In this document: positions 10,253 to 64,000 of the stretch, in pieces | How the letters are laid out: each line of letters begins with the position of its first letter | Position numbering within the stretch: the first letter of the stretch is position 1 | Source: a virus | IMG/VR virus record: IMGVR_UViG_3300020733_000013 | Location: 11,891-75,890 of that record | DNA length: 64,000 nt | Reading direction: 5' to 3' (one strand) | Program-made: the position numbers and the translations under genes | Notes under the pieces: generated by a model | The model's database searches: none | What the model was told of the DNA's origin: nothing | The model's input: the letters and a program-made list of their open reading frames with translations, nothing else

Positions 10253-11440
10253 ATGAGAGCAAGTGAGTTCATTGTTGAGTATAAGCAATATCCTCTGGAA
10301 GAGTTTGAGGGTATCAATATGAAACTTAAAGTAGACAACCATGAGTTGATTCTGCAGGCTCTTGACGACTGGGGTAACAAAGTACTAGGTCATGTTAGAA
10401 TGAACATAGGCGATGGTAGTGAACTAGACCCTCAAGATTTACAAGTTGACGAACGTTATAGAGGTCAGGGCATAGCAAAGGTAATGTATGATTACCTTAA
10501 GTCTAAAGGTTATGAAATACATCGTAGTCCTGACCAAACAGATGACGGTAAACATTTTTGGGACAAGAACCGCGGTGAAGAAGGTAATGTTTGGGAAGAT
10601 GTTTTCGGTTCAAAAGCACCAAAGAAATTTGAACCTCTGGAAGAGTTTGAGGAAAATAATCTAAAACTAGAACCCGAACCGTATGAAGGTTGGACTGGCG
10701 AAGGTATTATTATTCGTGCGTATTTGAGTGACAAAGAAGTAGGGCATGTAATCTTTGAACCTACAGAAGATGATGAAACACAATGGTATGCAGTTGATGT
10801 TGAAGTAGATGACAACTATCAGCGTAAAGGTATTGCTACATCTATGTATAACTTGGCTAAGAATATTGCTAAAAAGCGTGGTATAATTATTGTTCGTAGT
10901 CATGCACAAAGTCAAGCCGGTCAAGGTCTTTGGCAAGATAAAAAAGTTTGGGAAGATGTACCTAAACCTGGACCAAGTTCAGGAGCGCCAAAGCAATTTG
11001 GACCTGACGCAAAGATAGAAACTCGCCAAATGACTGTAAAGCAATTAATCTCGTCAGTACCAGGCTTGCCCTACTACAACAATGTAGTTGATGATTGGGA
11101 TGCTAAGGACTATAGTTGGGGAGTTACTAAGAAGGTAATAGAATACGCAACTTATCTAAAAGAACATCCAGAGAGTTTGTCAAAGTTGCCACCCATAATA
11201 GTATTGAACGGCAAGTTTGAAGATGGCGCACATAGAGTGTCTGCTATATGGTTGCTACAACAAAGAATGGATCCTAAAAATCCACTGTGGTCAAATGCCA
11301 AACTAAATGTTCAATTCGTTACTCAAAATATCAACGAATCATTTCTAATATTGGTGAGAAAAATGGTTTCTTTGGTAAGAAACACACAGATGAACAACGA
11401 CAAAGAAAAAGAACCGAAAAACTTTTATCCCCTAAAATAA
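10253..11440 (+). CDS. Putative head-cargo polyprotein: GNAT + GNAT + ParB-like domain
   Basis: Leader MRASEFIVE; acetyl-CoA motifs VDERYRGQGIA and VDDNYQRKGIA; ParB-like PPIIV...DGAHRVSA; linkers VWED, VWED, INES. Confidence 0.75.
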   Translation: MRASEFIVEYKQYPLEEFEGINMKLKVDNHELILQALDDWGNKVLGHVRMNIGDGSELDPQDLQVDERYRGQGIAKVMYDYLKSKGYEIHRSPDQTDDGKHFWDKNRGEEGNVWEDVFGSKAPKKFEPLEEFEENNLKLEPEPYEGWTGEGIIIRAYLSDKEVGHVIFEPTEDDETQWYAVDVEVDDNYQRKGIATSMYNLAKNIAKKRGIIIVRSHAQSQAGQGLWQDKKVWEDVPKPGPSSGAPKQFGPDAKIETRQMTVKQLISSVPGLPYYNNVVDDWDAKDYSWGVTKKVIEYATYLKEHPESLSKLPPIIVLNGKFEDGAHRVSAIWLLQQRMDPKNPLWSNAKLNVQFVTQNINESFLILVRKMVSLVRNTQMNNDKEKEPKNFYPLK

Positions 11441-11529
11441 AATGTTATCATTGTAGCAAAGAAATTGACAGCATGAACTATGCTAGATGGCATGGGGATA
11501 AATGTAAAAATAAAAAGGAAAATATATGA
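11332..11529 (+). pseudogene. Homing-endonuclease remnant (NUMOD3-like + Zn-finger tail)
   Basis: GEKNGFFGKKHTDEQRQRKR...KIKCYHCSKE...YARWHGDKCK with no catalytic GIY-YIG/HNH N-terminus; overlaps the end of the upstream ORF in another frame. Confidence 0.6.
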
Positions 11530-12170
11530 TTGTCGGTGTGTGTGGTTTCATCGGTAGTGGTAAAGATACGATTGCAGACTATCTTTGCACACATCATAAG
11601 TTTAAGCGAATTAGTTTTGCAGCCAGTCTTAAAGATGCAGTAGCAGCAATCTTTGGTTGGGACAGAGAATTACTAGAGGGAACGACAAAAAGCAGTCGTC
11701 AATGGCGTGAACAAGTAGATCCTTGGTGGAGTGAACGATTAGGTAAAGATATCACACCCCGTTGGATACTACAATATTGGGGCACAGAAGTCTGTCGTCA
11801 AGGCTTTCACGATGATATTTGGGTAGCAAGCGTAGAGAATAAACTACGCCAAGCAAAGGATGATATTGTCATCACCGACTGTCGTTTTGCTAACGAGATT
11901 AAAGCTATCAAAGATGCAGGTGGCATCACAGTACGAGTATCTAGGGGAGACGAACCTGAATGGTACAGTGCAGCAGTTGAATACAACAAGGGACCAAACG
12001 GTAATCCCATGTGGGCACTGAGCAAAGCTAAACTAGACAAACTAAAAGTACATGCTAGTGAGTATTCTAGTGTTGGATTAAAGTATGATTATTACCTAGA
12101 CAACAATGGAACAATTGATGAACTACACAATCATATTAGTCAACTGTTAGATCACCACGACGCCACGTAA
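11526..12170 (+). CDS. Deoxynucleoside monophosphate kinase (T4 gp1-like)
   Basis: GFIGSGKDT P-loop, SFAASLKD, TPRWILQYWGTE, ITDCRFANE, HASE. Confidence 0.9.
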   Translation: MIVGVCGFIGSGKDTIADYLCTHHKFKRISFAASLKDAVAAIFGWDRELLEGTTKSSRQWREQVDPWWSERLGKDITPRWILQYWGTEVCRQGFHDDIWVASVENKLRQAKDDIVITDCRFANEIKAIKDAGGITVRVSRGDEPEWYSAAVEYNKGPNGNPMWALSKAKLDKLKVHASEYSSVGLKYDYYLDNNGTIDELHNHISQLLDHHDAT

Positions 12171-12477: not shown

Positions 12478-12596
12478 GTGATATTTATGCAAGAAACCTT
12501 CGAAGGCACGCTTATTGAGTCTTTTTAGAAAATTTCGCTAAATATCTATACGAACTAGGGCGTTAACCCTCACAATCATAACTAAAGGAAAACAAA

Positions 12597-16157: not shown

Positions 16158-16158
16158 T

Positions 16159-16183
16159 AAATGGCGCGGAGACGCGCCATTTT
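16159..16183 (+). terminator. Intrinsic terminator
   Basis: AAATGGCGCG-GAGA-CGCGCCATTTT. Confidence 0.8.
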
Positions 16184-16214
16184 ATAAGATAAATAAAATA
16201 TAGGAGAATATTAT

Positions 16215-16850: not shown

Positions 16851-16853
16851 TAA

Positions 16854-18014: not shown

Positions 18015-18018
18015 TACC

Positions 18019-19423: not shown

Positions 19424-20041
19424 ATGAAAAGCCTACGTCATTATCTAATGGAAAGTGTCAGAACATATCGTTACACGATTAAAATCGCTGGCGATGTCGA
19501 TAAGAATTTTATCGACTTGTTCACACACAATCTTACAAAATTCGATCCAGTAAAGATTGAAGACTCAAAAACTACTCCAGTTCAAAAAGATCCATATGGA
19601 TTTCCTGACCTACAGAATGAATCTATTACGATTATTAAAGCAGAGTTCAAGTACCCTGCAACTGAACCAATGATTCAGCAAATTGCACAATTGTTAGGTA
19701 AGAACATCAATACTGTACGTGTATTAACTACAGATTATGATGACAGTATCAACAGTGAAGCAGACAAATATGCTAATCAAATGGATGCAGAAGAAAAACA
19801 AGCATTACTAAACACTGAAACATTAGAAGATAATGGTAAAGAAGCAAGCAAAGAATATGCAAATCAATACTTAGATAAGGTTGTTCCTAAGAAGCCAAGT
19901 ATTGATATTCCTTATGCAGGCAAACAAACTCCTACTCAACCTAACAAGAGTAAAGAAGGAATCAACACAACTAGTGCTATGGGCAACGGTCGTGTTACAA
20001 TGCCAGCAAAACCACAAACAGGCTCTAGAAAGGCAGGATGA
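19424..20041 (+). CDS. Putative head-associated protein with internal-protein-like leader
   Basis: Starts MKSLRHYLMES; late box 19398-19403; SD AGGA. Confidence 0.55.
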   Translation: MKSLRHYLMESVRTYRYTIKIAGDVDKNFIDLFTHNLTKFDPVKIEDSKTTPVQKDPYGFPDLQNESITIIKAEFKYPATEPMIQQIAQLLGKNINTVRVLTTDYDDSINSEADKYANQMDAEEKQALLNTETLEDNGKEASKEYANQYLDKVVPKKPSIDIPYAGKQTPTQPNKSKEGINTTSAMGNGRVTMPAKPQTGSRKAG

Positions 20042-20280
20042 TGGTGGATTTTACTACTAGTCAATTGTCATGGATAGTAGTTGGTGCATGTGGCATTGGT
20101 GGTACTGGTTACCTCTCAATGAATGCCAATATCAACGATCTAAATACTAAGACAACAGTTATTCAAGTTAAAGCAGAAAATGCAGAATCAAAAATGAATG
20201 ACATGGGTAAACAATTAGATAGAATTGAACAAGCGTTAGCAGTATTGCAAGAAACGCAAAATAGAAAAGGATCAAAATAA
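20038..20280 (+). CDS. Small membrane protein (one TM + coiled coil)
   Basis: Hydrophobic WIVVGACGIGGTGYL followed by a heptad-like region ending KQLDRIEQAL. Confidence 0.6.
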   Translation: MMVDFTTSQLSWIVVGACGIGGTGYLSMNANINDLNTKTTVIQVKAENAESKMNDMGKQLDRIEQALAVLQETQNRKGSK

Positions 20281-22664
20281 TGGATTTTAAAAGCCTATTA
20301 CAGTCATTCGACACATTGAGCGAAGCTGAAACAAAAGATACAAAGACTGGTAGAGTCCATAAAGGTGACTATGGTAATAGTTACGATGCAGGCGAAGACC
20401 ATGAAGTTAAAAGTGCTACTGCTCCTAAAAAGGGACGTGGTCGTCCTAAGAAAGGCAGTGGCGATTCTGGCGAAGTCAAATCATACGATACTAAATCAAT
20501 TGGTAATGTGTTTGGTGCTGGTTCAAAGCCAAACAAGTCAGTTGGAACAGTTTCTAAAAAGCATTCATTAAAAGAATATATTGAAAGTGTTGAATCTAGT
20601 AAACAACTAGATGAAGCAGTTATTGCTCCTACTCAACCAACAAATGGTATGGGTGGAAAACAAACTAGTTCTGGTAACCCACAACAAGATGCACAAAAAA
20701 ATGCAGCAATTAGCAACAATGCTAGAACAGCAATTAGTAAGTTAAGCAATGCTGGAATTAGTATTCCTAACAAATCACAAGCTGCAAATACAGCAATGAA
20801 GGCAGCGATACAACCAAATGCTCAACCAACTCCGCAAGACAAAGATGCTGAAATGAATTTAGCAGCACAAGTAAATAATTTACTTTCAAAAGCTCCTGAA
20901 AGTCAAGTTGACCAATTTACAAACGTTATTAAACAAATGACAAAATCTGCGGCTCCATCAGGATTATCAGAAGAAGCAGTTGAAGAGGGCAAAGACGAAG
21001 GCAAGCCAGGTAAGAACTTTGCTAAGATTGCCAAGTCAGCAGGTGCACATTATGGTTCAAAAGCTGCTGGCGAACGTGTAGCAGGTGCAGTTCGTGCTAA
21101 GTTAATGAAACAAGGTAAACTTGAAGAATCTGCCGAAGAAAAATCATACACATGTGTACATGCTAAAAAAGGTAAATGTGAAGTAACTGCTACCACGAGC
21201 TATGATGCGGCTAAAAAGGCAGCAGCTAAATGGAAACTCAACAGCACATCTGGAATTGATGCACACTTAAACACAACAAAAGTTGCAGTAGATGAAGCAG
21301 CTAAGCCAGACTTCTTAGACATGGACAAAGACGGTAACAAGAAAGAAAGTTTCAAGAAAGCCGTAAATGATAAAAAGTCTAAAAAGAAAGTAGCTGAAAG
21401 CCGCATTCACGAAGATTCAGATTATACATATGAAACGGTTGCTAAAGTATTGGCACGTGAGAAGCCAGGATTGAATACTAGTTCAGATGATTTTTCAAGT
21501 GCAGTTTACCATGAACTAATTGCTATTGGTATGACTCCAAAATCAGCACATAACTTAATGAGTTTCAATGAAGACTTTTTGAGTGATGTAGCAACATCAT
21601 ATGAGCACTATCAAACAAACCCATCATTAGATGAAGGTGCAACTGAAGATTTTGCACAAAAAGCTCCTGGAATCAAGCCAAGCAAAGTTGTTCAAGTTCC
21701 AGCAAAACAAGAACCTACTCCATGGAAAGTAGATCCAATTAACGCGGCTACAGATAGAGCATACAATTTTATCTCTAACTTACGCAAAGACAAAACATTT
21801 GAAAGTGACGATATGAAAGACGTACAATTTGAAAGCTGGGAAAAACAGCTAAACGGTTTATTGAATGAAGGTATCACAGTATCAACAAGTACTGGTCAGC
21901 AAGGTGCTCCTGATTCAGTAAGCATCAATGCAACTGATGCAGACGCAGAACAACTATTGTCAGTACTACGTACTGCTGGTGTTGGCGTATTTGGTGGCAA
22001 CGAAAAACCAGAAATTGGTTACGGTGTAGCGCAAGGTGGTGAAGAAGAACCAACAGGTACAGGTACAGAACCAGAAGCAGCTCCGGAAGTAGTTGGTGAC
22101 GAAGGCGACATGTTAGCATTGATTAAGAAAATGGCTGGTATGGGTGATGAAGGTTCATCACACGGTGGTGACTATGAAGATGAAGAAAGTTCAGAAGAAT
22201 CACAAGATGGTACATTAGAACCAGCTAGTGCAGATGACGAAGAATCTGATGACGAGGAAGAAGAACAAACTGATGAAGGTAATGCTTTCACTGGTAAATT
22301 GAAAGACACACCAAAAGGTGGAGAATTCAAAATGGGTGATAAAGAGTACAAAGACACAAGTTCTATTGAAGAAAACGAAGAAATGTGTGATGAATGCGGT
22401 TACACTATGAACGAGTGTGAATGTGAACATGAACACGGTGACGAAGACCAAGTTGAAGAATGCTGGGCTAACGATGCAGGTGGTGACGCTGAAGGTGGTA
22501 CAGAATTGATGAAACTAAAAGCATTGTTGAGCATGGGCAATGACTTGCACAAAATGAAACGTAGTCAGTCTGTTGGTAATCCAACAAAAGTCACAATGGA
22601 AGATACATTGATGAAAAACTCAACAGAAATGTTGACTGACTGGAAAAAGTTAAGCGGAATCTAA
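20280..22664 (+). CDS. Acidic modular head-internal / scaffold-like polyprotein
   Basis: More than 10 (L/V/I)xE linkers (LSEA, LDEA, VEEG, LEES, VDEA, VAES, IHED, LDEG, LNEG), AT-hook KGRGRPKK, EF-hand-like DMDKDGNKKE, E/D-rich tail. Confidence 0.6.
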   Translation: MDFKSLLQSFDTLSEAETKDTKTGRVHKGDYGNSYDAGEDHEVKSATAPKKGRGRPKKGSGDSGEVKSYDTKSIGNVFGAGSKPNKSVGTVSKKHSLKEYIESVESSKQLDEAVIAPTQPTNGMGGKQTSSGNPQQDAQKNAAISNNARTAISKLSNAGISIPNKSQAANTAMKAAIQPNAQPTPQDKDAEMNLAAQVNNLLSKAPESQVDQFTNVIKQMTKSAAPSGLSEEAVEEGKDEGKPGKNFAKIAKSAGAHYGSKAAGERVAGAVRAKLMKQGKLEESAEEKSYTCVHAKKGKCEVTATTSYDAAKKAAAKWKLNSTSGIDAHLNTTKVAVDEAAKPDFLDMDKDGNKKESFKKAVNDKKSKKKVAESRIHEDSDYTYETVAKVLAREKPGLNTSSDDFSSAVYHELIAIGMTPKSAHNLMSFNEDFLSDVATSYEHYQTNPSLDEGATEDFAQKAPGIKPSKVVQVPAKQEPTPWKVDPINAATDRAYNFISNLRKDKTFESDDMKDVQFESWEKQLNGLLNEGITVSTSTGQQGAPDSVSINATDADAEQLLSVLRTAGVGVFGGNEKPEIGYGVAQGGEEEPTGTGTEPEAAPEVVGDEGDMLALIKKMAGMGDEGSSHGGDYEDEESSEESQDGTLEPASADDEESDDEEEEQTDEGNAFTGKLKDTPKGGEFKMGDKEYKDTSSIEENEEMCDECGYTMNECECEHEHGDEDQVEECWANDAGGDAEGGTELMKLKALLSMGNDLHKMKRSQSVGNPTKVTMEDTLMKNSTEMLTDWKKLSGI

Positions 22665-31519: not shown

Positions 31520-32026
31520 ATGCATTCTGACAAATATGGCTTACAAGTTTTAAACGAATCTGATCTATGTGATTACTACTTACGTAATCCAGATCAGGTA
31601 TTGAAACATGCCATTGTTGAAAAACAAATCACATTCCCTAGCGATTTAGATTTAGAAAATATCCCAGAATTATTAGAGTACGCACCACTTGATATTACTA
31701 TTGACGAGTTTGACAGTATCTATCAAAACACATGGTACATGCCAGATGAATACAAGAATTTTGATATTGTCAAATATGTACTAGACTTGTGCAAAACAGA
31801 CCAAGAACTGCAAAGAGTGGGTGACGAGTTATTGAAGTTTCAGGAACGAGACTTGTTTGTATTACTGTGCTACTGTAAATATTTGGTAGACACAATGCGT
31901 AAACATAATATCGTTTGGGGAGTGGGTAGAGGATCAAGCGTGTCTAGTTATGTATTGTACCTGATAGGGGTACACCGCATAAATAGCATATTCTATGATT
32001 TAGACATAGATGAATTTTTAAAATAG
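31520..32026 (+). CDS. dnaE: DNA polymerase III alpha subunit fragment (split DnaE)
   Basis: RV..EL..F...YLVD.MR...IVWGVGRGSSVSSYVLYLIGVHRIN...L...EFL matches the DnaE GRGS region; it stops before the PDxDxD catalytic motif. Confidence 0.8.
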   Translation: MHSDKYGLQVLNESDLCDYYLRNPDQVLKHAIVEKQITFPSDLDLENIPELLEYAPLDITIDEFDSIYQNTWYMPDEYKNFDIVKYVLDLCKTDQELQRVGDELLKFQERDLFVLLCYCKYLVDTMRKHNIVWGVGRGSSVSSYVLYLIGVHRINSIFYDLDIDEFLK

Positions 32027-35272: not shown

Positions 35273-35914
35273 ATGAGCAATCCAACAGACGAATTTTTTG
35301 ATAGCGTAGACTATCCTAGTATCATTGATAACATCAAGGGAATTTACACCAGTGATGGTATGATGAGCACCCTAATGGACTTTGAACGTGTATTAGATGA
35401 AGCAGATTTGTATGCTTTCCGTAACTGGGACTTAGGTGAATTAGTATCCGGTCCTAGAGTACGTAGATATGACGTTGCATGTATGTTTATGTATCCATTA
35501 AAACGTATGCCAGACCCAACTGGGGCTAAACGTCTATTAAAATTGGGTTGTGACGTTAAGTTTAAAAAGACAAAAATCAAAGTACCTATCAAAATTGAAG
35601 GTCCGGGCGACTATAAACCAGGAACTCACTATCCAAAAATGACTGAACGTGATATTTGGTTAGTGTTAATTGAAATGCCAAAAGAACTAATGAACGATAT
35701 TCGTGAAGGTTCTATCGACTTGGCTGAACAAACAATTGATTTAGAGGACTTGGATAAAGCCTACGAACAAGACCTAGATAAAGAAAGTACTGAGGATCAA
35801 GATGATAATGCATCATCGGGTCAAATGCCAGGAATGGATCAAGGTCTAGGTGGTGGTATGAGTCCAGGTGGTTTAGGTGGTCCTGCTCCAATGCAAGGTC
35901 CAGGGGGCATGTAA
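35273..35914 (+). CDS. Hypothetical late protein (acidic, G/M/P-rich tail)
   Basis: Start placed at ATG 35273, downstream of late box 35262-35267. Confidence 0.65.
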   Translation: MSNPTDEFFDSVDYPSIIDNIKGIYTSDGMMSTLMDFERVLDEADLYAFRNWDLGELVSGPRVRRYDVACMFMYPLKRMPDPTGAKRLLKLGCDVKFKKTKIKVPIKIEGPGDYKPGTHYPKMTERDIWLVLIEMPKELMNDIREGSIDLAEQTIDLEDLDKAYEQDLDKESTEDQDDNASSGQMPGMDQGLGGGMSPGGLGGPAPMQGPGGM

Positions 35915-36453
35915 TGAATAAAGTTCTTAATGAAGGTTTTGACTATCACGACTTAGTGGATCAAGTTATCCCAGAAATCTCAATTGACGAGTACGCAGCT
36001 AAAATGGGTACCAACGATGAGATTGTTACACTTACATTTACAACAAAAGGCAAGCAACAAGCTAGTGATTTGGTTGACTGGCTAGAACGCGGATACGACT
36101 TTGTATTAGATGCTGAAGTCAGTGAAGGTGAAGTTTCACCAGGTAAGTATTTAGTATTTGTAGAAATGAATCGTAGAACAAGTGTGCCAGAACGTATTTG
36201 TGAAATGGTTGAAGACATGAAAACATTAACAGATTTAGACAGTGACAAATGGTCTGTTAAGATTGAAGATAAAGAATACAAAGCTGACAAAGAAATTCTA
36301 AAGCAACATATTATTTTAAGCCCGCAAAAATATCGTGAACTCAAAGAAACAGACTTAAATGAAATGCGTCAACGTGCTGGATTAGAAACACATAAGATAT
36401 ACTCTAACCCAGACAAAATTTTAAAAGATTACTTAGCAAAGGCAGGATTATAA
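35914..36453 (+). CDS. Hypothetical protein, possibly head-associated
   Basis: Begins MNKVLNEG and contains LNE-MRQRAGL near the C-terminus. Confidence 0.6.
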   Translation: MNKVLNEGFDYHDLVDQVIPEISIDEYAAKMGTNDEIVTLTFTTKGKQQASDLVDWLERGYDFVLDAEVSEGEVSPGKYLVFVEMNRRTSVPERICEMVEDMKTLTDLDSDKWSVKIEDKEYKADKEILKQHIILSPQKYRELKETDLNEMRQRAGLETHKIYSNPDKILKDYLAKAGL

Positions 36454-41244: not shown

Positions 41245-41582
41245 TGGCACAAAGTTCAGCATATCAATTGTTGCCACAAACAGCATACAAACAAGTTTCA
41301 CAAGTGATTGGTGATAAAGTTCCTGCCGCCGCATATTATATCAAGCAAAACAATATGCAGACATTCACATGGAATCTTACAACATTTACCGGTCTATTAC
41401 AAATTCAAGCAACACTAGCAGATAATCCAGGCAATGGTGACTGGTTCACTATCTATAACCTATCAGGTAATCAATTAACTCAAACTAGCTTTACTAATAT
41501 ATCTGGTAACTTTGTTTGGGTTCGTGCTGTAATCAATAACTTTGGTTTTGGTGTTGTTCAAAGTGTTAAGGTTAGCTATTAA
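41244..41582 (+). CDS. Small beta-sandwich-like virion protein
   Basis: IQATLA..P...DWF...GNFVWVRA; TAATG coupling. Confidence 0.6.
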   Translation: MAQSSAYQLLPQTAYKQVSQVIGDKVPAAAYYIKQNNMQTFTWNLTTFTGLLQIQATLADNPGNGDWFTIYNLSGNQLTQTSFTNISGNFVWVRAVINNFGFGVVQSVKVSY

Positions 41583-44500
41583 TGAAAATTGCCGCACTAT
41601 TAGAAAGTAAACAACCATTGATGGAAGGTGGTAATTTAAGTGTGGGCAAACATGAAGCAGAACACTTAGATTTGAAAGTTACAAAACGTAGCTACATGGT
41701 TCCCAAACTCAATGAACTATTAAACGCAATCAATAAAGCATTCAATGTAAAACACAAGGCTCCATTATGGAGTAGTGAATTATTGTCAAGCGGTAAGTTT
41801 TTGAGTGGTAGTAGTTTACATTTCTTTGATGTTGCGGGTATCAGTGATGATACATTCTTTGCTAAGAAGCCAACTGTAGGTGATATTGATACCATGGTTG
41901 ACAAACGTTTGGAATTCATTTTACAAGAATTCTTAACAAGTGCAACAAATAAACAAATTGGTCCTGCAAAATTGCTAGGATTTCAAAAAGGTAACGAACA
42001 ATATTCTGCATTGTTTGAGTTACAAGACCCACCCGTAAAAGTACAAATTGACTTTGAATTTGTTTCTTTTGAGAATGGAATGCCTAGCGACTGGGCAAGA
42101 TTTAGTCATAGCAGTTCATGGGATGATATCCAACAAGGTGTTAAGGGTGTATTTCATAAGTGGTTGATTCAATCATTGACTACACTAACCAACAAGCAAT
42201 TCCTGTTACGTAAAATGATCGGTCGTGGTGCAATGCGTAAAGAAGAGGACATCCCTACAACAGACAACATGTATAGTTTTGCCGTGTCTAGTAAAGAAGG
42301 TGGCGGATTACGTGCTAAGTACGAACCAGTATTAAATCCTAACACAAACAAACCATTAGTGATTAAGGGTTTGCCTGTAATGAAAGCAGCACCTGCAGCT
42401 GGATACGAACAAAACATTGGTAAGATTTTTTCAACTATACTAGGCAAACGTCTTGACCCTAAACAAATGCAAGCTATCTCTAATAACTTCTGGTCATTCA
42501 CTGGGTTAGTACAGTTGATGGGTAAGATATTATCACCAGAAGATAAACAAACAGTATTGCTCGGTTTCTTAAACAAAACAATCGGTAAAGGTAGTCAAGG
42601 TCTTTACAAGAACAATCCAGAAAAAGATATCAGTGAAAAAACAACAGCAATCAATTATCTAGTTAAAACATTAGGACTACAATTGCCACCTGAGTTCAAT
42701 CAAATGATGGCTGACTATAGAAAAAACTATAAGATGACTGAACTATCAGAAGCAGGTCCTAACTATAAGCGTCAAGGTATCCCACACATTTACAAGCCTG
42801 GCTCAACAGTTGAATTGAAAGATAATGAGTTCATTGAGTTATGTAAAGAAATCATGGCTGATGGTGGTAAACTTGAAGGTGTACCAATCAACTTGAAAGT
42901 TGATGGTGCAGGCATCAGATTTGGTAAAGACCAAAATGGTCGTCCATTCTTTATGACAAGTAAAGTTACAGAACCTAAATACATTGAGAATTTTGGTGAC
43001 TTTGAAAAGTATGGTCGTAGTGTTGGACAAGACGAAGAACGATTGAACTTTACTAAGCAATATGACAATGCATTAAAGACAATATTGACTGCTCCATTTA
43101 TGAAAGTTATCCCTAGTGATACTATCGTACAAGCAGAAATGATGTATACTCCAATGGCTCAACAAGAGAATGGCGGCTTGAAGTTTGTTAACATCCCTTA
43201 TGATCCTAAAAAGTTGGGTAAAGAGATGACTCTTGTACCATTCATGTTCAAACAGTTTAGCACTGGACAAGTTCGTCCTGACAGTCAAAAGATTAAAGAA
43301 GCACTATTAAAAACAAGCAATAGTAAAATTAAAATGGTTAACAACAACTTGCAACATAAAGGTATTGATGTTGCTAAGATTGTTAGTCCTATTGTTAAAA
43401 ACGCAGATACATTAAGTGCTGCGGTTGCTACTCGTGGAACAAATCCTACAAAAGAAAAAGCAAAAGCTATCTTGTCTCAAGCTAGACAACAACTAAGCAA
43501 TGCTATTATCAATGGACCTATTCCAGGTAAAGATCAATTGGGTGACATGATTGAAGGTCTTGTTATCAATATGCCTAGTGGTTTACTAGCTAAAGTAACA
43601 AGCACAGACATGGCAAACAAGATGGCTACTAAAATGGCTGCTCGTCAACCAGTCAAAGGTAATCAACGCCCTGCTGTAGTTGCTGTGGGCAGTGCGATTG
43701 GGCATGTAGGACATCAACAATTATTCAACCATGCAATCGCTCTAGCAAAACAAGTTGGTGGTCAACCTTACATGTTTATAGGACCTGCAGAAGGTAAAGA
43801 TGATCCTATTCCACCAAGTGTTAAAGTTGAAACATGGCATAAGTTATACCCACAACTAGCGAGTAACATATCAACTGTTAGTCATGAGGGCGGTACATTA
43901 CTACAGAAAATCAAACATGAGTTGATTAATCCTCAACCAGGTAAACCACCAAGATATGATACAATTTATATTGTTGTTGGTAGTGATAGACATGACATGG
44001 CTGAAAGTTGGAGCAAATCTCTAATGAAAGCAGTTAACAAGTTCCCTGGATATGAAGGTGTTAAAGTTGTTCCACATGTAACGTCACGTGATAAGAATGA
44101 AGGTGGTACAGGTATAAGCGGAACATTACTACGTAGTGTTTTATCAGACAAAACAAAAACTCCAGAACAGCAATTTGAAGTTTGGAATCATGCTTACAAT
44201 AGTGGTAACTATGGTGCTCAGAAACTACCGGCAGAGTGGATTCAGCACTTAATGAATATTGCTCGTAAGGGTATGGGAATGCAAACTATGAATGAGTCAA
44301 GAATCTTTAATCCAAAGTCATTAGTTAATGTATATTATGTTTCCCCTAATGGCAATCGTCATAAGTTAGCAAAAAGCATTCCGTATGATTTAGTTGAGAA
44401 ACTATTACATGCATTGAAAGTTAAAAAGAACATTGACATTCACATGGATGATGTTGAAGTTCGTCCTGCTGATCCCTCACAATATACAGTGAGCACCAGT

Positions 44501-45733
44501 CAGTTTGATGAAGGTTCAGAAGAAGCATTACAATATGCAACTAAAGCACATGCTGGGCAAACTCGTTCAGGTGGTGATCCATATATCAGTCACCCAGTTC
44601 GTGTAGCTAATCATATCAAGCAATTTAAAAAATCACATAACCTAGATGCATTAATTAGTGCAGCATACTTACATGATACAATTGAAGATACTGACACAAC
44701 ACAAGAAATCTTACACGATTTGTTTGGCGGATTAGTTGCTAGTCTTGTAATGGAACTTACAAGCGATCCAGAACAAATTAAAAAGATAGGTAAGGCTCAA
44801 TATCTAGCACACAAAATGGCTGCAATGAGTAGCTATGCACTAGTTATCAAACTTGCTGATAGATTAGATAATGTCAAAGATATCACTACTGCTAAGACTC
44901 CTGAATGGAGACACAAATATGCAACTGAAACTAATCACATCTTAGATTACATTGAAAAGCATCGTGCTTTGTCAGGTACCCATACTAAATTGATTGATAT
45001 GATTCGTGCTAAGTTGGCTGAGATTGACCAACCACAGCAAGATGTGGCGGAAGGCAAGAACATGCCAGACTTAGAACATGTTGGCGAAAGAGTAGTATCT
45101 GTTATGGATGCTGAACGCAGACTTGCCCATGGAGATAGAATATTTGCGTTCCACGAAATGGATGAAGAGCCGTTTGAGATTCACAATGTCGGTGAGTTGG
45201 CAGGATATGATACTGAACAGTTATTGGCAGTACCACAAAGTGTAGCGGAAGAAGCAGACGAACAAAAAAGCTCAAATGTCTTTCAATCTATGGGTAGTCA
45301 ATTAATTGCTATGGGTAATGATGCTGATAAAATTAAAAGGCATGACCCATCAGTTATTGAAAAAGCAATTGATGCTAAATTAGAAAAAATCAATGATCCA
45401 AAACTTACACATGTTACGAAATCCTTTTTGAGTAAAGTTGTTAAGTTCAATAGAAGTAATCCAAAAACAATGGCAGCAATATTTGGATTTACCTTCTCTA
45501 TTATTGCTAGAGTATCAATGCAATTTAGTCATAATATGGGACTTAGTCCAACACAAGCAACATTACTAATAGAAGCATTATTGCCTACATTGGGTAATTT
45601 CTTGGGTTACATTGTCAATGGGTTTAGTGTAAAAGACAGTGTACAAGCTGGATTGATTGCTGGAACAATTGGCGTCGGCGGCACCTTGGCTGCAAGCGGT
45701 GCATTGTCTGAAGATTATTTAGACGAAAAATAA
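41582..45733 (+). CDS. Multi-enzyme putative head-cargo polyprotein (nucleotidyltransferase-like; KxDG ligase-like; HxGH cytidylyltransferase-like; RelA/SpoT HD hydrolase; small cassettes)
   Basis: LSGSS...GDIDTMVD; INLKVDGAG...EGLVI; AIGHVGH...VVGSDR...ISGTLLR; HAGQTR..GDPYISHP..LHDTIEDT..IKLADRLDN; linkers LMEG, LSEA, MNES, FDEG, VAEG, VAEE, LSED. Confidence 0.8.
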   Translation: MKIAALLESKQPLMEGGNLSVGKHEAEHLDLKVTKRSYMVPKLNELLNAINKAFNVKHKAPLWSSELLSSGKFLSGSSLHFFDVAGISDDTFFAKKPTVGDIDTMVDKRLEFILQEFLTSATNKQIGPAKLLGFQKGNEQYSALFELQDPPVKVQIDFEFVSFENGMPSDWARFSHSSSWDDIQQGVKGVFHKWLIQSLTTLTNKQFLLRKMIGRGAMRKEEDIPTTDNMYSFAVSSKEGGGLRAKYEPVLNPNTNKPLVIKGLPVMKAAPAAGYEQNIGKIFSTILGKRLDPKQMQAISNNFWSFTGLVQLMGKILSPEDKQTVLLGFLNKTIGKGSQGLYKNNPEKDISEKTTAINYLVKTLGLQLPPEFNQMMADYRKNYKMTELSEAGPNYKRQGIPHIYKPGSTVELKDNEFIELCKEIMADGGKLEGVPINLKVDGAGIRFGKDQNGRPFFMTSKVTEPKYIENFGDFEKYGRSVGQDEERLNFTKQYDNALKTILTAPFMKVIPSDTIVQAEMMYTPMAQQENGGLKFVNIPYDPKKLGKEMTLVPFMFKQFSTGQVRPDSQKIKEALLKTSNSKIKMVNNNLQHKGIDVAKIVSPIVKNADTLSAAVATRGTNPTKEKAKAILSQARQQLSNAIINGPIPGKDQLGDMIEGLVINMPSGLLAKVTSTDMANKMATKMAARQPVKGNQRPAVVAVGSAIGHVGHQQLFNHAIALAKQVGGQPYMFIGPAEGKDDPIPPSVKVETWHKLYPQLASNISTVSHEGGTLLQKIKHELINPQPGKPPRYDTIYIVVGSDRHDMAESWSKSLMKAVNKFPGYEGVKVVPHVTSRDKNEGGTGISGTLLRSVLSDKTKTPEQQFEVWNHAYNSGNYGAQKLPAEWIQHLMNIARKGMGMQTMNESRIFNPKSLVNVYYVSPNGNRHKLAKSIPYDLVEKLLHALKVKKNIDIHMDDVEVRPADPSQYTVSTSQFDEGSEEALQYATKAHAGQTRSGGDPYISHPVRVANHIKQFKKSHNLDALISAAYLHDTIEDTDTTQEILHDLFGGLVASLVMELTSDPEQIKKIGKAQYLAHKMAAMSSYALVIKLADRLDNVKDITTAKTPEWRHKYATETNHILDYIEKHRALSGTHTKLIDMIRAKLAEIDQPQQDVAEGKNMPDLEHVGERVVSVMDAERRLAHGDRIFAFHEMDEEPFEIHNVGELAGYDTEQLLAVPQSVAEEADEQKSSNVFQSMGSQLIAMGNDADKIKRHDPSVIEKAIDAKLEKINDPKLTHVTKSFLSKVVKFNRSNPKTMAAIFGFTFSIIARVSMQFSHNMGLSPTQATLLIEALLPTLGNFLGYIVNGFSVKDSVQAGLIAGTIGVGGTLAASGALSEDYLDEK
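45038..45252 (+). repeat. Two degenerate copies of the QGVAEG repeat inside the 1383-aa gene
   Basis: CAAGATGTGGCGGAAGG at 45038-45054 (1 mismatch in 17) and CAAAGTGTAGCGGAAGA at 45236-45252; period 198 nt. Confidence 0.8.
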
Positions 45734-46841: not shown

Positions 46842-47720
46842 ATGAACCTAAAAGAATTTGACGAATTTAAACTTGGGGATGCTGTACATTTCCATGACGA
46901 ACTTAACCCTGCAATCTTCAACGGGGAACATATGAAGCCACAGGTTCGTGAACAATTATTAACTATTGCAGACGATTTTCTGTCACATTTGGGTATTGAT
47001 AACCTAGACATTGACGATATTACTATCAGCGGTAGTTCAGCAGCATATAGCTATACAAAGCATTCAGACATTGACCTACATATTCTTGTAGATATGAACA
47101 AGTTCAGTGATGACGACATTTACCGTGAGTTATTTGACGCTAAAAAAGTCATATATAATGACCAACATGACATTAAAATCAATGGATTTGAAGTTGAATT
47201 GTATGTACAAGATACAAATCAGCCCGTAATTAGTTTGGGTGAATATAGTGTATTAAACGACAAATGGATCAAATTGCCACGTAAACGCAGGGCGCATTTT
47301 GACCAAGCAGCTACACAATTAAAATATAGAAAACTTTATAAATTAGCAGAGTTTGCTTACAAGTCTAACAACGTTCACAAAATTGAAAACGTGTTAAGAA
47401 CCATTAAAAAATATCGTCAAGCTGGATTAGATAAAGCCGGTGAGTTCAGCCCAGAAAACTTAGCATATAAAGCACTACGTACAAACAAAGTGATTGACAA
47501 GTTGTATAAAAAGGTTGATGAACTACACAGCAAAGAATTAAGTATCCCTGAAGATATGTATGAATGTTCAGGATATATACCAAGCGAAAAAGAAAAGAAT
47601 GATCCTCGTTTTAGTCGTGCGTTAAGTGTAGATGTAGGACCTAATGCGATTAAGAAAAATGCAAAAGCGTTTGGGTTTAAGGTTAGTAGAGCGGGTATTC
47701 CCCCGTTGTTAAGGAAATAA
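46842..47720 (+). CDS. Pol-beta-superfamily nucleotidyltransferase with internal-protein-like leader
   Basis: ISGSSAAYSY...SDIDLHIL...VELYVQD; leader MNLKEFDE; short C-terminal module after MYE. Confidence 0.7.
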   Translation: MNLKEFDEFKLGDAVHFHDELNPAIFNGEHMKPQVREQLLTIADDFLSHLGIDNLDIDDITISGSSAAYSYTKHSDIDLHILVDMNKFSDDDIYRELFDAKKVIYNDQHDIKINGFEVELYVQDTNQPVISLGEYSVLNDKWIKLPRKRRAHFDQAATQLKYRKLYKLAEFAYKSNNVHKIENVLRTIKKYRQAGLDKAGEFSPENLAYKALRTNKVIDKLYKKVDELHSKELSIPEDMYECSGYIPSEKEKNDPRFSRALSVDVGPNAIKKNAKAFGFKVSRAGIPPLLRK

Positions 47721-59678: not shown

Positions 59679-59687
59679 GGAATAAAA

Positions 59688-61404: not shown

Positions 61405-61463
61405 GCTTTATTTATAACCAAAAATTTGATAAATATAATATCGGTACTATAAGGACAATAATA

Positions 61464-62294
61464 ATGCGTATACCAAACATCAATTTAGCAAAAGCACAAA
61501 ACATCAAAGCAGCTTTCCAAGCAGCAAGTAGAGGCAAATATCACTGGGTGCGTGATACCCCGGATCCAAGAGACCAAATCTATCAATTGCAACCACTACA
61601 AACTACACCCGGTACTGTAGATTTGCGTCAATATGCAAGCCCCATTGATGACCAAGGTAATCTAGGAAGTTGTACTGGTAATGCTATTGCAGGACAGATT
61701 GATTTGATTGATAAAAAAGGTGGTAAAAATCTACGAGTTAGTCGTTTGTTCATTTATTACCAAGAACGTGTATTGGAAGGGACAACACGCTATGATTCAG
61801 GTGCTTATATCCGTGATGGTATCAAAGCATGTTATACATACGGTGCCCCATTAGAAAGTCTATGGCCTTATAATATCAACCAGTTTGCAGTTAAACCTAA
61901 TACATCAGCAACAAATGATGCATTAAATCGTAAAGTTACAGGGTATCAAAAATGTACAGATTTTAACGCAGTCAAAAATGCATTAGCAAACGGAAATCCA
62001 GTGACTATTGGATTTGACGTATATAGTAGTTTTGAGTCAGGAAACTGGTATAATACAACCGGTATCATGCCATACCCTAACACAAACAGAGAATCATTAT
62101 TAGGTGGACATGCGGTTTGTTTAGTTGGTTACAACGACAACTTAAACAATAGTGGTCATGGTTATTTCCTAGCAAGAAACAGTTGGGGAACTAGCTGGGG
62201 ATTACAGGGTTATTTCTGGATGCCATATCAAGTTATTCAGAATACTAATATGAGTAGTGACTTCTGGCTAATCTCAGCAGTGCATAATCCATAA
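61464..62294 (+). CDS. Papain-like cysteine peptidase (C1 family)
   Basis: VDLR...DQGNLGSCTGNA (Cys), GGHAV (His), RNSWGTSWG..GYF (Asn). Confidence 0.92.
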   Translation: MRIPNINLAKAQNIKAAFQAASRGKYHWVRDTPDPRDQIYQLQPLQTTPGTVDLRQYASPIDDQGNLGSCTGNAIAGQIDLIDKKGGKNLRVSRLFIYYQERVLEGTTRYDSGAYIRDGIKACYTYGAPLESLWPYNINQFAVKPNTSATNDALNRKVTGYQKCTDFNAVKNALANGNPVTIGFDVYSSFESGNWYNTTGIMPYPNTNRESLLGGHAVCLVGYNDNLNNSGHGYFLARNSWGTSWGLQGYFWMPYQVIQNTNMSSDFWLISAVHNP

Positions 62295-62344
62295 AAACAG
62301 TTCTGTTAAAAAAACGATAAATATCTAATATACGGAATTTATCT

Positions 62345-64000
62345 ATGAAAATTAATGAAACTTTCACAACCACATCAACTGATCCAGTAGGAAATCAGAG
62401 CCAACAAGCTCCTCACTTTGGTCGTTCAAACAAGGTCTTAGAAAAGAAAGACAAAGTTGAAGAAACTAGTGCAGGTGCTACAGGTTCAGGATCAATTGCT
62501 ACTGTATCAAATCCAATCGGTGGAATTAAGTCTCGTGGTAGTATTTTTTCTGGTGTAAAAACTAGCTCAAAATATCCCAACAGCAGAAAAGCTGGCATCA
62601 AAGAAAATAAAGAAGTAGAAGAAGGTCGATATTATAATCGTGATGCATATCAACGTGACTATGATTCAAGTCGTACAGGGTTTGGTCGTAGAGGTCGTGA
62701 AGACGATGAATATGTCAATGGACCAGATAAACTAACTTACAAAGTTCGTATCTTAGTGATTAACCCAGAAGGTGCTGAGGAAGATAGAACTGTAACTATC
62801 ACTACGGCAAAAGGTCCTGAATTTGCAAAAACACGTTCAATTAAACATTTAACTGACAAGGGTTATAAAATTCGTAAAGTATTTGATCCTGTAGAATCAG
62901 GATTAAATGAAGATGATGAACCTGAAGGTGAAACATTAAAAAATAGTCTTCACACTATTGTTCGTGTAGCATCAGATTTAGATGAAAGATTAAGTGTTGA
63001 TGAAGATTTTCCTGAATGGGTAAGTGAGAAAATCGGTACTGTAAAATCAATGTTGGTTAGTGTCATGGATTATTTAATCAGTGACCAAGAAATGCGTCAT
63101 GATCCTGATGCCATGAATGAAAGTGGTGGTCGTACAGTTTATGACATGGACAAAGAATATGGCGCACCTGCACAAAGACATAAGCCAGTAATTGCTCGTG
63201 GTAGTAGTTCAAGATATGATCCAGATGCAGTAGATCCTATGCACAGAGATCAACGCAGATTCCAAGCTGACCAAGATCGTTACTTGCAAGCACAGCGTGA
63301 TGCCATTGCCAAAATGAAAGCTGAAAAAGGCTTAGAAGAAGGCAGTGACGAACTATATCAAAAGGCTATTCACAAGTATGCTCAACGAGTAGCAGATGAC
63401 TACTTGGGTGGTGGCAATGAATATCTTTATGGTGCCAACAAGTTTGATAGCGAAATGTTTGGAGTAGATCCTAAACAAGCACAACAAGACTTTAAGACAT
63501 TGTTTGCTCAACTAACAAAACAACAAGGTGTGGCGGAAGGATTGGATGGCCGTGCTAGTGCTACCCCGGCAATAAACAAACGCGGAAAATTCACATCGTG
63601 GGACGAGAATGAACCTATGCGTTTGAAATGTCAAGATGGTGAGTTCAGAACCATACAAGAAATCAATGTGCTTAGACAGAAAATGGGAATGAAACCTTTT
63701 TCTATCAAAGGCGAACAAGGTGTGGCGGAAGGCTCTGAGAACTTTACAATAACACAAAAGAAAGATCAGTCATATCCCGGCTCACTTCAGGTCGTTATCA
63801 CTGATAAATCTACTGGTAAACAAAAAGTTATTGCTGGCGATCCAAGAAAAATAAAACAACAAATCAAACAAGAGTTTGGTATAGATTATAACTTTAGTCA
63901 ACAAGGTGTGGCGGAAGGCAGAGTGTTGCACCGAGATTTGAAATCTTGGACAGATGACGCAAAATCGCAAGGGTTGAATGTTATTAAACCAAAAAATGAT
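62345..64000 (+). CDS. Modular putative head-cargo polyprotein with QGVAEG repeats, 3' truncated (missing from the ORF track)
   Basis: ATG 62345 after late box 62318-62323; by my translation open to the window end (MKINETF...VEETSAG...VEEGRYY...LNEDD...MNESG...KGLEEGS...QGVAEGL...QGVAEGS...QGVAEGR...). Confidence 0.85.
   Translation, partial: MKINETFTTTSTDPVGNQSQQAPHFGRSNKVLEKKDKVEETSAGATGSGSIATVSNPIGGIKSRGSIFSGVKTSSKYPNSRKAGIKENKEVEEGRYYNRDAYQRDYDSSRTGFGRRGREDDEYVNGPDKLTYKVRILVINPEGAEEDRTVTITTAKGPEFAKTRSIKHLTDKGYKIRKVFDPVESGLNEDDEPEGETLKNSLHTIVRVASDLDERLSVDEDFPEWVSEKIGTVKSMLVSVMDYLISDQEMRHDPDAMNESGGRTVYDMDKEYGAPAQRHKPVIARGSSSRYDPDAVDPMHRDQRRFQADQDRYLQAQRDAIAKMKAEKGLEEGSDELYQKAIHKYAQRVADDYLGGGNEYLYGANKFDSEMFGVDPKQAQQDFKTLFAQLTKQQGVAEGLDGRASATPAINKRGKFTSWDENEPMRLKCQDGEFRTIQEINVLRQKMGMKPFSIKGEQGVAEGSENFTITQKKDQSYPGSLQVVITDKSTGKQKVIAGDPRKIKQQIKQEFGIDYNFSQQGVAEGRVLHRDLKSWTDDAKSQGLNVIKPKND
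63522..63918 (+). repeat. Three identical 19-nt in-frame direct repeats AACAAGGTGTGGCGGAAGG
   Basis: 63522-63540, 63714-63732, 63900-63918; periods 192 and 186 nt; intervening sequences unrelated. Confidence 0.95.

What the first reader, a model, noticed from the sequence alone, without database searches (positions are those of the whole stretch)
10253..64000. Window-wide family of putative capsid-targeted, protease-processed polyproteins
Seen: at least seven late ORFs start with a short leader ending in Glu: MRASEFIVE (10253), MKSLRHYLME (19424), MDFKSLLQSFDTLSE (20280), MNKVLNE (35914), MKIAALLE (41582), MNLKEFDE (46842), MKINE (62345). In the multidomain ones, nearly every recognisable domain boundary coincides with (L/V/I/M/F)xE-(G/S/A/D). 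Known: T4 internal proteins carry a ~10-aa capsid-targeting leader (IPIII MKTYQEFIAE) removed by gp21, and IPI* is injected to block a host restriction enzyme. Inference: this phage extends that logic to enzyme-sized polyproteins, packaging a pre-made toolkit delivered with the DNA.
Basis: partly seen in the sequence, partly recalled or inferred. Interest (0 to 1): 0.82.

Follow-up and report, generated by a model that had tools for sequence, protein, structure and literature searches.

The report
Leader-tagged, cleavable phage cargo polyproteins
A fragment of an uncultured giant T4-related phage encodes about ten proteins, several of them chains of unrelated enzymes, that start with a short T4-style "pack me into the head" leader and have joints that look like cutting sites for the head-maturation protease; this suggests ready-made enzymes injected with the DNA, but no cut or packaging has been measured.

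Summary
All seven leaders are at the stated starts, and three more lie just upstream of the window. The loose motif alone is weak (19 of 70 ORFs against 11 expected). Stronger support:
- A scoring matrix trained on other contigs picks out 10253, 62345 and 46842.
- In six of the seven, homologues keep the h-x-E (hydrophobic, any residue, Glu) site while leader length varies.
- Free-standing copies of a module carry a leader exactly where the window's polyprotein has an internal joint.
- In the 1383-aa protein, 6 of 9 motif sites fall in or beside inter-domain segments (p about 1e-4), marking 5 of 6 boundaries.
- Homologues gain, lose and swap cassettes at these joints.
- One joint, QGVAEG, is fixed as DNA and recurs in at least 120 viral contigs.

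The idea is not wholly new: T4 Alt, phiKZ/SPN3US ejection proteins and "polyvalent proteins" are precedents. I class it as a new variant of a known kind. This scan already reported the QGVAEG cassette system in at least eight other genomes.

The parts
10253..11440 (+). 395-aa protein: leader MRASEFIVE (10253-10279), two GNAT acetyltransferase modules each ending VWE|D (10589-10597, 10946-10954), and a C-terminal domain of unknown fold
   Evidence: Pfam GNAT hit, E = 1e-16. Highest leader score of the contig, 11.1 bits. The same leader, MRAxEFI[VI]E, precedes at least 11 unrelated cargos elsewhere. The GNAT module recurs as a cassette in L001 and P0093.
19424..20041 (+). 205-aa protein of unknown function with leader MKSLRHYLME (19424-19453)
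   Evidence: Homologues keep the site: MRGLKQFITE|SVKTY and ..KKYLAE|SVRTY.
20280..22664 (+). 794-aa charged, low-complexity protein with leader MDFKSLLQSFDTLSE (20280-20324) and an AT-hook-like GRGRPKKG motif
   Evidence: Leader conserved in L093 (MDFKSLLDQLSQLSE|A) and L008 (MDIRSILNKLDTVVLAE|A). In L045 the module that follows it sits internally, after VSE|G. h-x-E-[GSAD] occurs 10 times against 5 expected.
35914..36453 (+). 179-aa homologue of a virion structural protein, with leader MNKVLNE (35914-35934)
   Evidence: phrog_13138, E = 6e-20. Syntenic homologue RaK2 ORF169 is annotated 'virion structural protein' and starts MKEQLNE|QG. L099 and L057 have longer N-terminal extensions that end LLE|GLQY and LSE|GLQY.
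41582..45733 (+). 1383-aa polyprotein. Leader MKIAALLESKQPLME (41582-41626); domain 1 (residues 17-387); LSE|A (42743-42751); RNA-ligase-like domain (392-684); PPAT/NadD-like nucleotidyltransferase (695-901); MNE|S (44288-44296); small beta domain; FDE|G (44504-44512); small alarmone hydrolase (972-1153); VAE|G (45044-45052); C-terminal part
   Evidence: AlphaFold model with pLDDT 83.7 and its low-confidence segments. Fold matches with Z = 21.6, 12.5 and 11.7. In 119 homologues a variable leader always ends h-x-E|GGN, some genes start directly at MGGN, and the C-terminal cassettes vary after about residue 900.
45038..45055 (+). Copy of the DNA-fixed linker (CAAGATGTGGCGGAAGGC, peptide QDVAEG)
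   Evidence: 4 matches in the window against 0.03 expected.
46842..47720 (+). 292-aa nucleotidyltransferase-like protein. Cassette insertion joint IPE|DMYE|C at 47544-47564. Conserved C-terminal tail SGYIPS...PPLLRK
   Evidence: 1663 homologues. They carry 0, 1 or 2 different cassettes between ..LSLPE and SGYIPS, and every cassette ends h-x-E|small. Leu3 and Glu5 are nearly invariant. Residues 1-18 and 234-245 are low-confidence in a weak model.
62345..64000 (+). Polyprotein truncated by the contig end (552 aa seen). Leader MKINE (62345-62359), joints VEE|G (62615-62623) and LEE|G (63332-63340), and three QGVAEG joints
   Evidence: Modules recur in other contexts and as free-standing genes with leaders: MKINDLLGE|GWRSRDSY... 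against the window's KEVEE|GRYYNRDAY.... h-x-E-[GSAD] occurs 8 times against 2.9 expected, and VAEG 3 times against 0.0 expected.
63524..63541 (+). QGVAEG linker DNA, copy 1
63716..63733 (+). QGVAEG linker DNA, copy 2 (exact CAAGGTGTGGCGGAAGGC)
63902..63919 (+). QGVAEG linker DNA, copy 3 (exact)

Best explanation
These ORFs are head-cargo proteins of a T4-related jumbo phage.

Proposed mechanism (inferred):
1. A short N-terminal leader, consensus M-[KRN]-[IL]-x-[ED]-[LFI]-[LIF]-x-E, targets the protein to the scaffolding core of the prohead. This is how the T4 capsid-targeting sequence works.
2. The gp21-type prohead protease then cuts after Glu in hydrophobic-x-Glu|small sites. That removes the leader and, in the multi-module proteins, separates the modules.
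3. The freed enzymes stay in the head and enter the cell with the DNA. They include GNAT acetyltransferases, nucleotidyltransferases, an RNA-ligase-like domain and a small alarmone hydrolase.
4. Because every module is bounded by the same kind of joint, modules can be gained, lost and swapped in frame. One joint, QGVAEG, is also fixed as DNA.

Shown here: the leader family, conservation of the sites, the coincidence of sites with structural and homology boundaries, cassette exchange at the joints, and a gp21-type protease in a relative.

Inferred, not shown: targeting, cleavage, packaging and injection.
For: 1. Leaders are present and enriched under an independently trained matrix. They are linked to the internal joints (58/80 against 302/1044).
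2. The leader MRAxEFI[VI]E precedes at least 11 unrelated cargos, with synonymous DNA variation, which points to selection on the peptide. It resembles the T4 CTS MKTYQEFIAE (sequence attested in PMC8442874). In the T4 CTS, residues 4 and 7 target and residues 8 and 10 direct processing (PMC9026906).
3. The site is conserved while leader length varies. In the 41582 family Glu15-Gly16-Gly17-Asn18 are at least 90% invariant; leaderless genes start MGGN, and other forms place an extra ~120-aa module before E|GGN. The same holds for 19424, 20280, 35914 and 62345.
4. Leader and joint occupy the same position: free-standing MKINDLLGE|GWRSRDSY... against the internal KEVEE|GRYYNRDAY....
5. Structure: 6 of 9 sites fall in or beside inter-domain segments (p = 9e-5). 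Fold-derived domain limits 392, 901, 972 and 1153 each sit within 5 residues of a site.
6. Cassettes are inserted at h-x-E joints in 1663 homologues of 46842 and after residue ~900 in the 41582 family.
7. Relative G004 has a Peptidase_S77 gene (91 bits). It sits next to a portal gene, a scaffold (28 h-x-E against 13.8 expected, starting MLDALKSLFE|N) and a major capsid protein with ..KYLSE|SAS about 41 residues before the conserved GVQPM.
8. RaK2 ORF169, the syntenic homologue of 35914, is annotated as a virion structural protein. The contig-9808 protein hits a 'virion structural protein' PHROG.
Against: - There is no direct evidence of cleavage or packaging.
- The own contig has no protease gene, but it is only 22% complete.
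- Glu is generally commoner in linkers: any Glu gives 14 of 71 in the low-confidence segments, p = 0.02.
- h-x-E enrichment in the scaffold could partly reflect coiled-coil heptads.
- Three motif matches lie inside folded domains, and one boundary of 41582 (residues 689-694) has no site.
- Five-residue leaders (62345, 46842) are shorter than any documented T4 propeptide (7 residues in Alt).
- The P1' residue is not always small (E|Y in 10253, E|F in 46842).
- The DNA-level fixation of QGVAEG is not explained by a protease site alone.
- The T4 late-promoter motif is not enriched.
Confidence: 0.62

Rival explanations
1. The joints and leaders are architectural and recombinational features only. 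On this view the proteins act as intact multi-domain cytoplasmic enzymes. The h-x-E|G joints are flexible linkers kept because they allow in-frame cassette exchange, and the N-terminal motif serves translation or folding.
For: - QGVAEG is conserved as DNA (CAAGGTGTGGCGGAAGGC, using GC-rich codons in a 38% GC genome). It occurs in at least 120 viral contigs, which points to a DNA-level role.
- Glu and Gly are common in linkers.
- There are no virion data.
- The enzymes involved (nucleotidyltransferases, GNAT, alarmone hydrolase) are cytoplasmic types.
Against: - The leader is conserved as a peptide, with synonymous DNA variation, in front of unrelated cargos.
- A flexible linker would not need residue-specific conservation of P3-hydrophobic and P1-Glu, yet Glu15/Gly16 are at least 90% conserved within an otherwise variable leader.
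- Leaderless MGGN forms show the leader is an appendage, not part of the fold.
- Most non-QGVAEG joints (LPE, VSE, VTE, LEE, VGE) differ in sequence but keep the h-x-E pattern.
Confidence: 0.2
2. The proteins are processed, but by another protease and not necessarily inside the head. One candidate is the papain-like Peptidase_C1 encoded at 61464-62294, immediately upstream of the 62345 polyprotein. It would cut one residue earlier (h-x|E), because papain-type enzymes prefer a hydrophobic P2 residue.
For: Peptidase_C1 hit, E = 5e-19, adjacent to a polyprotein gene. The pattern h-x|E also fits a hydrophobic-P2 preference (own knowledge of papain-family specificity).
Against: No Peptidase_C1 is found in four relatives, including the 71%-complete G004, which does have the leader genes and an S77 protease. 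The invariant residue is the Glu, which is the hallmark of T4 gp21-type specificity (PMC9026906).
Confidence: 0.08
3. The pattern is a chance resemblance: short N-terminal peptides ending in Glu are common, and the reader picked them after the fact.
For: The loose motif is expected in about 16% of ORFs by chance, and the ClpA-like and other proteins also match it.
Against: Enrichment under the independently trained matrix. Conservation in homologues. The structural test, p = 9e-5. The leader-joint association, p = 2e-14.
Confidence: 0.03

Closest known systems
Phage T4 internal proteins IPI, IPII, IPIII and Alt: capsid-targeting sequence removed by prohead protease gp21 (PMC9026906)
   Same: - A short N-terminal leader ending hydrophobic-x-Glu (T4 MKTYQEFIAE; here MRASEFIVE, MKIKEVIIAE).
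- The leader is portable between unrelated cargos.
- The cargo set is variable between related phages.
- A gp21-family protease is present in the clade.
- Alt shows that an enzyme can be cargo.
   Different: - Here several unrelated modules are strung in one ORF, with protease-type sites between them.
- Leaders vary from 5 to about 22 residues.
- One joint is fixed at the DNA level across many phages.
- The cargo is unrelated to the T4 internal proteins.
- Nothing has been shown experimentally.
Ejection and inner-body proteins of phiKZ, 201phi2-1 and SPN3US, processed by their prohead proteases (PMC10052503, PMC5694885)
   Same: Giant phages that package tens of megadaltons of protein, enzymes included, after cleavage C-terminal to Glu. 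Propeptides there can hold several cleavage sites.
   Different: Their motif is A-x-E (SPN3US) or S/A/G-x-E (phiKZ, own knowledge), and propeptides are mostly 111-254 residues. Here P3 is hydrophobic as in T4, leaders are short, and the products would be several distinct modules rather than one mature fragment.
Polyvalent proteins of phages and conjugative elements (Iyer et al. 2017, PMC5512222)
   Same: Proteins with 2 to 15 domains that combine unrelated enzymatic activities, predicted to be packaged and delivered with the DNA and in some cases proteolytically released. GNAT domains are among their repertoire.
   Different: Those proteins typically carry their own metallopeptidase or other processing domain, plus hallmark domains that were not detected here. 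In this window, processing would be done in trans by the prohead protease at short repeated joints, and entry would be through a T4-type leader.
Hyperplastic internal-protein locus of T-even phages, where cassettes are exchanged between conserved flanks (Repoila et al. 1994, own knowledge; PMC9026906 notes CTS-like proteins in T2 and T6)
   Same: Conserved short flanks allow different cargo genes to be exchanged between related phages.
   Different: Here the exchange happens inside an ORF, in frame, at an 18-nt joint.

Membership tests
T4-type CTS-bearing, gp21-processed head-internal proteins | N-terminal leader of about 10 residues ending in (L/I)-x-E | tested here: met
All seven ORFs, plus three upstream, have such a leader. 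The site is conserved in homologues for six of the seven.
T4-type CTS-bearing, gp21-processed head-internal proteins | The phage encodes a gp21-family (Peptidase_S77) prohead protease | tested here: inconclusive
   No hit on the own contig, which is only 22% complete. The relative G004 (270 kb) has one at 91 bits inside a T4-like head module.
T4-type CTS-bearing, gp21-processed head-internal proteins | The protein is present in the virion with its leader removed | not testable with these tools
   Indirect only: the RaK2 ORF169 homologue of 35914 is annotated as a virion structural protein, and there are PHROG 'virion structural protein' hits for 35914 and contig-9808.
T4-type CTS-bearing, gp21-processed head-internal proteins | The leader is sufficient to target foreign proteins into the head | not testable with these tools
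   This needs leader-reporter fusions in a cultured relative.
Polyvalent proteins (Iyer et al. 2017) | Two or more unrelated enzymatic or effector domains in one polypeptide of a phage or mobile element | tested here: met
   41582 combines an RNA-ligase-like domain, a PPAT/NadD-like domain and a small alarmone hydrolase. 10253 has two GNAT modules plus another domain.
Polyvalent proteins (Iyer et al. 2017) | An embedded processing peptidase or a hallmark domain (MPTase, MuF and similar) | tested here: not met
   Pfam scans of the whole proteins and of the sub-segments found no such domain. Pfam sensitivity is limited, and several modules have no assigned fold.
phiKZ/SPN3US-type processed ejection proteins | Cleavage motif with small P3 (A-x-E or S/A/G-x-E) and homology to the conserved giant-phage head protein set | tested here: not met
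   The conserved P3 here is L/I/V/M/F. The nearest cultured relatives by tail sheath are PA5oct, Atu_ph07 and RaK2-type phages, not phiKZ-like ones.

The most novel reading that the evidence does not exclude
The leader plus the h-x-E joints form a general plug-and-play grammar for loading arbitrary protein modules into the capsid of a large clade of freshwater T4-related jumbo phages. Any module bounded by the joints would be packaged, cut free and injected. The DNA-fixed QGVAEG joint would act as an in-frame recombination point, letting phages trade ready-to-inject counter-defence enzymes (RNA ligase, NAD/CoA-type nucleotidyltransferase, alarmone hydrolase, acetyltransferases) much as an integron trades gene cassettes.
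Probability: 0.4. Interest if true: 0.82.

Novelty: new variant of a known kind. Interest (0 to 1): 0.7.

Why it matters
If the reading is right, a widespread group of uncultured giant phages delivers a changeable set of pre-made enzymes with its DNA. These would act before any phage gene is expressed, in the first seconds of infection when host defences act.

The module list points to particular targets:
- an alarmone hydrolase, against (p)ppGpp/(p)ppApp signalling;
- an RNA-ligase-like domain, for repair of cleaved tRNA;
- a PPAT/NadD-like nucleotidyltransferase;
- GNAT acetyltransferases.

The short leader and joint would also be a compact, transferable tag for loading foreign proteins into large capsids. 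The cassette exchange at the joints shows how such arsenals could diversify.

The system looks testable. The cultured cyanophage DSL-LC03 has an NTase homologue that starts MNLESFLE, and RaK2 has a structural protein that starts MKEQLNE.

Tried and rejected
- Megablast of the tail sheath gene against cultured phages found nothing. Only protein-level relatives exist.
- The T4 late promoter motif TATAAATA is not enriched, so 'late' could not be confirmed that way.
- Pfam on the sub-segments of 41582, 62345 and 10253 named no further domains.
- The AlphaFold model of 46842 was weak (pLDDT 62) because the alignment lacked diversity, so it is used only as a hint.
- I considered the adjacent papain-like peptidase as the processing enzyme. 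It is absent from four relatives.
- I considered an internal ribosome-binding site or start codon at the QGVAEG DNA. No start codon lies at a consistent distance downstream.
- The RaK2 and PA5oct papers give no N-terminal processing data for the homologues in the text that is held.
- A full-text search for 'QGVAEG' found no phage paper.
- No structural test was made of 62345 or 10253, because only two structure predictions were allowed.


Full report
**What the DNA is.** The window is bases 11891-75890 of a 75.9-kb IMG/VR viral contig that CheckV rates 22% complete, which implies a genome of roughly 350 kb. It carries T4-like neck and tail genes: sheath stabiliser, sheath at 12597-16157, tube, and head closure. 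It also carries fibres, an endolysin, a clamp loader, PhoH, a GroES-like protein, DnaJ and a ClpA-like ATPase. By tail sheath, the nearest cultured phages are jumbo phages of the PA5oct, Atu_ph07 and Phosso type, at about 46% amino-acid identity. There is no DNA-level match to any cultured phage.

**Checking the observation.** All seven ORFs begin with the quoted peptides at the quoted coordinates. Three more ORFs on the contig, just upstream of the window, begin in the same style: MKIKEVIIAE|G, MKLNEF... and MRLYEF.... [LIVMF]-x-E within the first 16 residues occurs in 19 of 70 ORFs against 11 expected (p about 0.01), and the matches include proteins that are certainly not cargo. So I looked for tests that do not depend on this contig.

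**Independent tests of the leader.**
- I trained a position matrix on the N-termini of 79 ORFs from other phage contigs, chosen only because they contain an internal QGVAEG-type joint. Applied to this contig, it ranks 10253 (11.1 bits), 62345 (8.6), contig-7702 (8.4) and 46842 (5.8) at the top. Three ORFs score 8 bits or more against 0.07 expected.
- In those other contigs, ORFs with an internal joint have h-x-E (hydrophobic, any residue, Glu) in the first 16 residues in 58 of 80 cases, against 302 of 1044 for ORFs without one (p = 2e-14).
- The leader MRAxEFI[VI]E, which is the window's MRASEFIVE, stands in front of at least 11 unrelated proteins. Its DNA varies synonymously among them, so it is the peptide that is selected.
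- It resembles the T4 capsid-targeting sequence MKTYQEFIAE (sequence attested in PMC8442874). In T4, residues 4 and 7 of that sequence direct targeting and residues 8 and 10 direct processing (PMC9026906).

**Conservation of the sites in homologues.**
- 41582 family: in 119 homologues the leader varies from 5 to about 22 residues but always ends h-x-E|GGN. Glu15, Gly16, Gly17 and Asn18 are at least 90% invariant. Some genes start directly at MGGN, and some insert an extra ~120-residue module before E|GGN.
- 19424: MRGLKQFITE|SVKTY and ..KKYLAE|SVRTY.
- 20280: MDFKSLLDQLSQLSE|A and MDIRSILNKLDTVVLAE|A.
- 35914: ..NPLLE|GLQY and ..QRLSE|GLQY. The syntenic RaK2 ORF169, annotated as a virion structural protein, has MKEQLNE|QG.
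- 62345: MKISSLFE|M and MKIKTLLE|T.
- 46842 is the exception. Across 1663 homologues Glu8 is not conserved, but Leu3 and Glu5 are, so the likely leader is MNLKE. A cultured freshwater cyanophage, DSL-LC03, has a single-module homologue that starts MNLESFLE|Q.

**Leader and internal joint are interchangeable.** The module GRYYNRDAYQRDYDSSRTGFGRR follows KEVEE| inside the window's 62345 protein. In five other contigs the same module is a free-standing gene that starts MKINDLLGE|GWRSRDSYQRDYDSSRTGFGR. In the 270-kb relative it is fused behind a cytidylyltransferase, after ELEE|G. The module after the 20280 leader (LSE|A) sits internally after VSE|G in L045.

**Cassette exchange at the joints.**
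- Homologues of 46842 carry no cassette, one cassette or two between ...LSLPE and the conserved tail SGYIPS. The cassettes include a PF18905 module, a ~130-residue module, a GNAT module of the kind found in 10253, and others. Every cassette ends h-x-E|small.
- The 41582 family shares about 900 residues and then diverges, just before MNE|S, into cassettes carrying many different Pfam domains.
- In the 94%-identical relative L001, modules of 62345 and 10253 are redistributed among different ORFs.
- Pooled over five proteins, homology breakpoints lie beside a site for 21 of 46 HSP (BLAST local-alignment) starts (7.3 expected) and 24 of 52 ends (9.2 expected).

An AlphaFold model of residues 1-1200 of the 41582 protein, built from 52 sequences, has mean pLDDT 83.7. 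Its low-confidence segments are 1-16, 388-391, 689-694, 902-913, 965-974 and 1151-1200.
- Of nine h-x-E-[GSAD] matches, six (Glu8, 15, 390, 905, 977, 1157) lie in or within 3 residues of those segments, which make up 10.7% of the residues (p = 9e-5).
- Five of the six segments carry a site.
- The other three matches are inside domains. Glu658-Gly659 looks like ligase motif IV (EGLVI) and is nearly invariant for that reason.
- Fold matches give domain limits that agree with the sites: RNA-ligase-like 392-684 (Z 11.7), PPAT/NadD-like nucleotidyltransferase 695-901 (Z 12.5), and small alarmone hydrolase/Mesh1 972-1153 (Z 21.6, 26-30% identity).
- Caveat: Glu in general is somewhat enriched in these segments (p = 0.02).

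**The protease.** No Peptidase_S77 gene lies on the own contig, which says little because the contig is a fragment. The 270-kb relative G004 shares the DnaJ/ClpA block and a row of leader-bearing genes: MILLE|GGN, MRLRELFVE|S, MRLRNLFE|N, MRASDLE|L and MRLIDIINE|G. It also encodes an S77 protease (91 bits) in a T4-like head module. That module includes a portal gene and a scaffold that starts MLDALKSLFE|N and holds 28 h-x-E against 13.8 expected. It also includes a major capsid protein with ..KYLSE|SAS about 41 residues before the conserved GVQPM, which is where T4 gp23 is trimmed. A papain-like peptidase sits just upstream of 62345, but none is found in four relatives.

**The DNA-fixed joint.** The three QGVAEG joints of 62345 and the DVAEG joint of 41582 share CAAGGTGTGGCGGAAGGC. 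That is 4 matches at 3 mismatches or fewer, against 0.03 expected. It uses GC-rich codons in a 38% GC genome. Most other copies of the peptide use the same codons, although that sample is biased by how the loci were chosen. A protease site alone does not explain this. In-frame recombination at the joint is the simplest added explanation, and it is not shown.

**Earlier notes of this scan.** I had already found the QGVAEG joint and the module shuffling before I looked up the scan's earlier findings. At least eight earlier reports on other genomes describe the same cassette polyproteins with the same reading. They agree with what I found independently here. What this window adds:
- the leader family across many genes of one genome;
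- the cassettes of the 46842 and 41582 families, which do not use QGVAEG;
- the structural test on 41582.

**Verdict.** The interpretation (targeting leader plus prohead-protease sites, giving packaged and processed cargo) is the best-supported reading, at about 0.6. It rests entirely on comparison, and no cut or packaging has been measured. The concept has clear precedents: T4 internal proteins and Alt, phiKZ/SPN3US ejection proteins, and polyvalent proteins (PMC9026906, PMC10052503, PMC5512222). The held literature has no description of this joint or of these polyproteins. I class it as a new variant of a known kind.

Noticed in passing
window 44495-45040 (residues 972-1153 of the 41582 protein): This domain has a small alarmone hydrolase / Mesh1-type fold (Z 21.6, 26-30% identity to (p)ppGpp and (p)ppApp hydrolases). 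A phage-borne alarmone hydrolase could counter stringent-response or toxSAS-type defences.
   Followed up: partly
window 42755-44284 (residues 392-901 of the 41582 protein): An RNA-ligase-like nucleotidyltransferase domain (KxDG motif at 439-442, EGLVI at 658-662; Z 11.7 to Naegleria RNA ligase) is followed by a PPAT/NadD-like HxGH nucleotidyltransferase (Z 12.5). The junction between them (689-694) is the only boundary without an h-x-E site.
   Followed up: partly
window 61464-62294 (+): A papain-family cysteine peptidase (Peptidase_C1, E = 5e-19) lies immediately upstream of the 62345 polyprotein. It is absent from four related contigs. Its role is unknown.
   Followed up: partly
window 47565-47720 (C-terminal tail of the 46842 protein): A conserved ~50-residue basic tail (SGYIPSEKEKNDPR...RAGIPPLLRK) is kept downstream of every inserted cassette in hundreds of homologues. 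Why the tail must stay C-terminal is unexplained.
   Followed up: no
L138:231-617 (contig bases 231-617, upstream of the window): A 128-aa ORF matches only the N-terminal part of T4-type major head proteins (phrog_138, profile positions 53-112 of 444, including the GVQPMTG motif). It is either a fragment or a small paralogue.
   Followed up: no
window 32371-32745, 37234-38061, 38084-40354: The phage encodes its own chaperone set: a GroES-like head morphogenesis protein, DnaJ, and a 756-aa ClpA/ClpB-like ATPase. The DnaJ and ClpA genes lie just upstream of the leader-bearing genes, and the same arrangement is seen in the 270-kb relative.
   Followed up: no
window 20430-20460 (20280 protein, residues ~50-60): An AT-hook-like motif (KKGRGRPKKG) sits in a leader-bearing, highly charged 794-aa protein and is conserved in a homologue (KRGRGRPKKG). 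This is compatible with a DNA-binding internal head protein.
   Followed up: no
window 31520-32026 and L138:3162-3752: Two separate small ORFs each match a different part of DNA polymerase profiles (phrog_11127, phrog_11778), which suggests a split polymerase.
   Followed up: no
L016:7919-9010 (-) in relative G004: The scaffold protein holds 28 hydrophobic-x-Glu triplets in 363 residues (13.8 expected) and starts with a leader-like MLDALKSLFE. The protease itself has MVVE|S at residues 17-20.
   Followed up: partly
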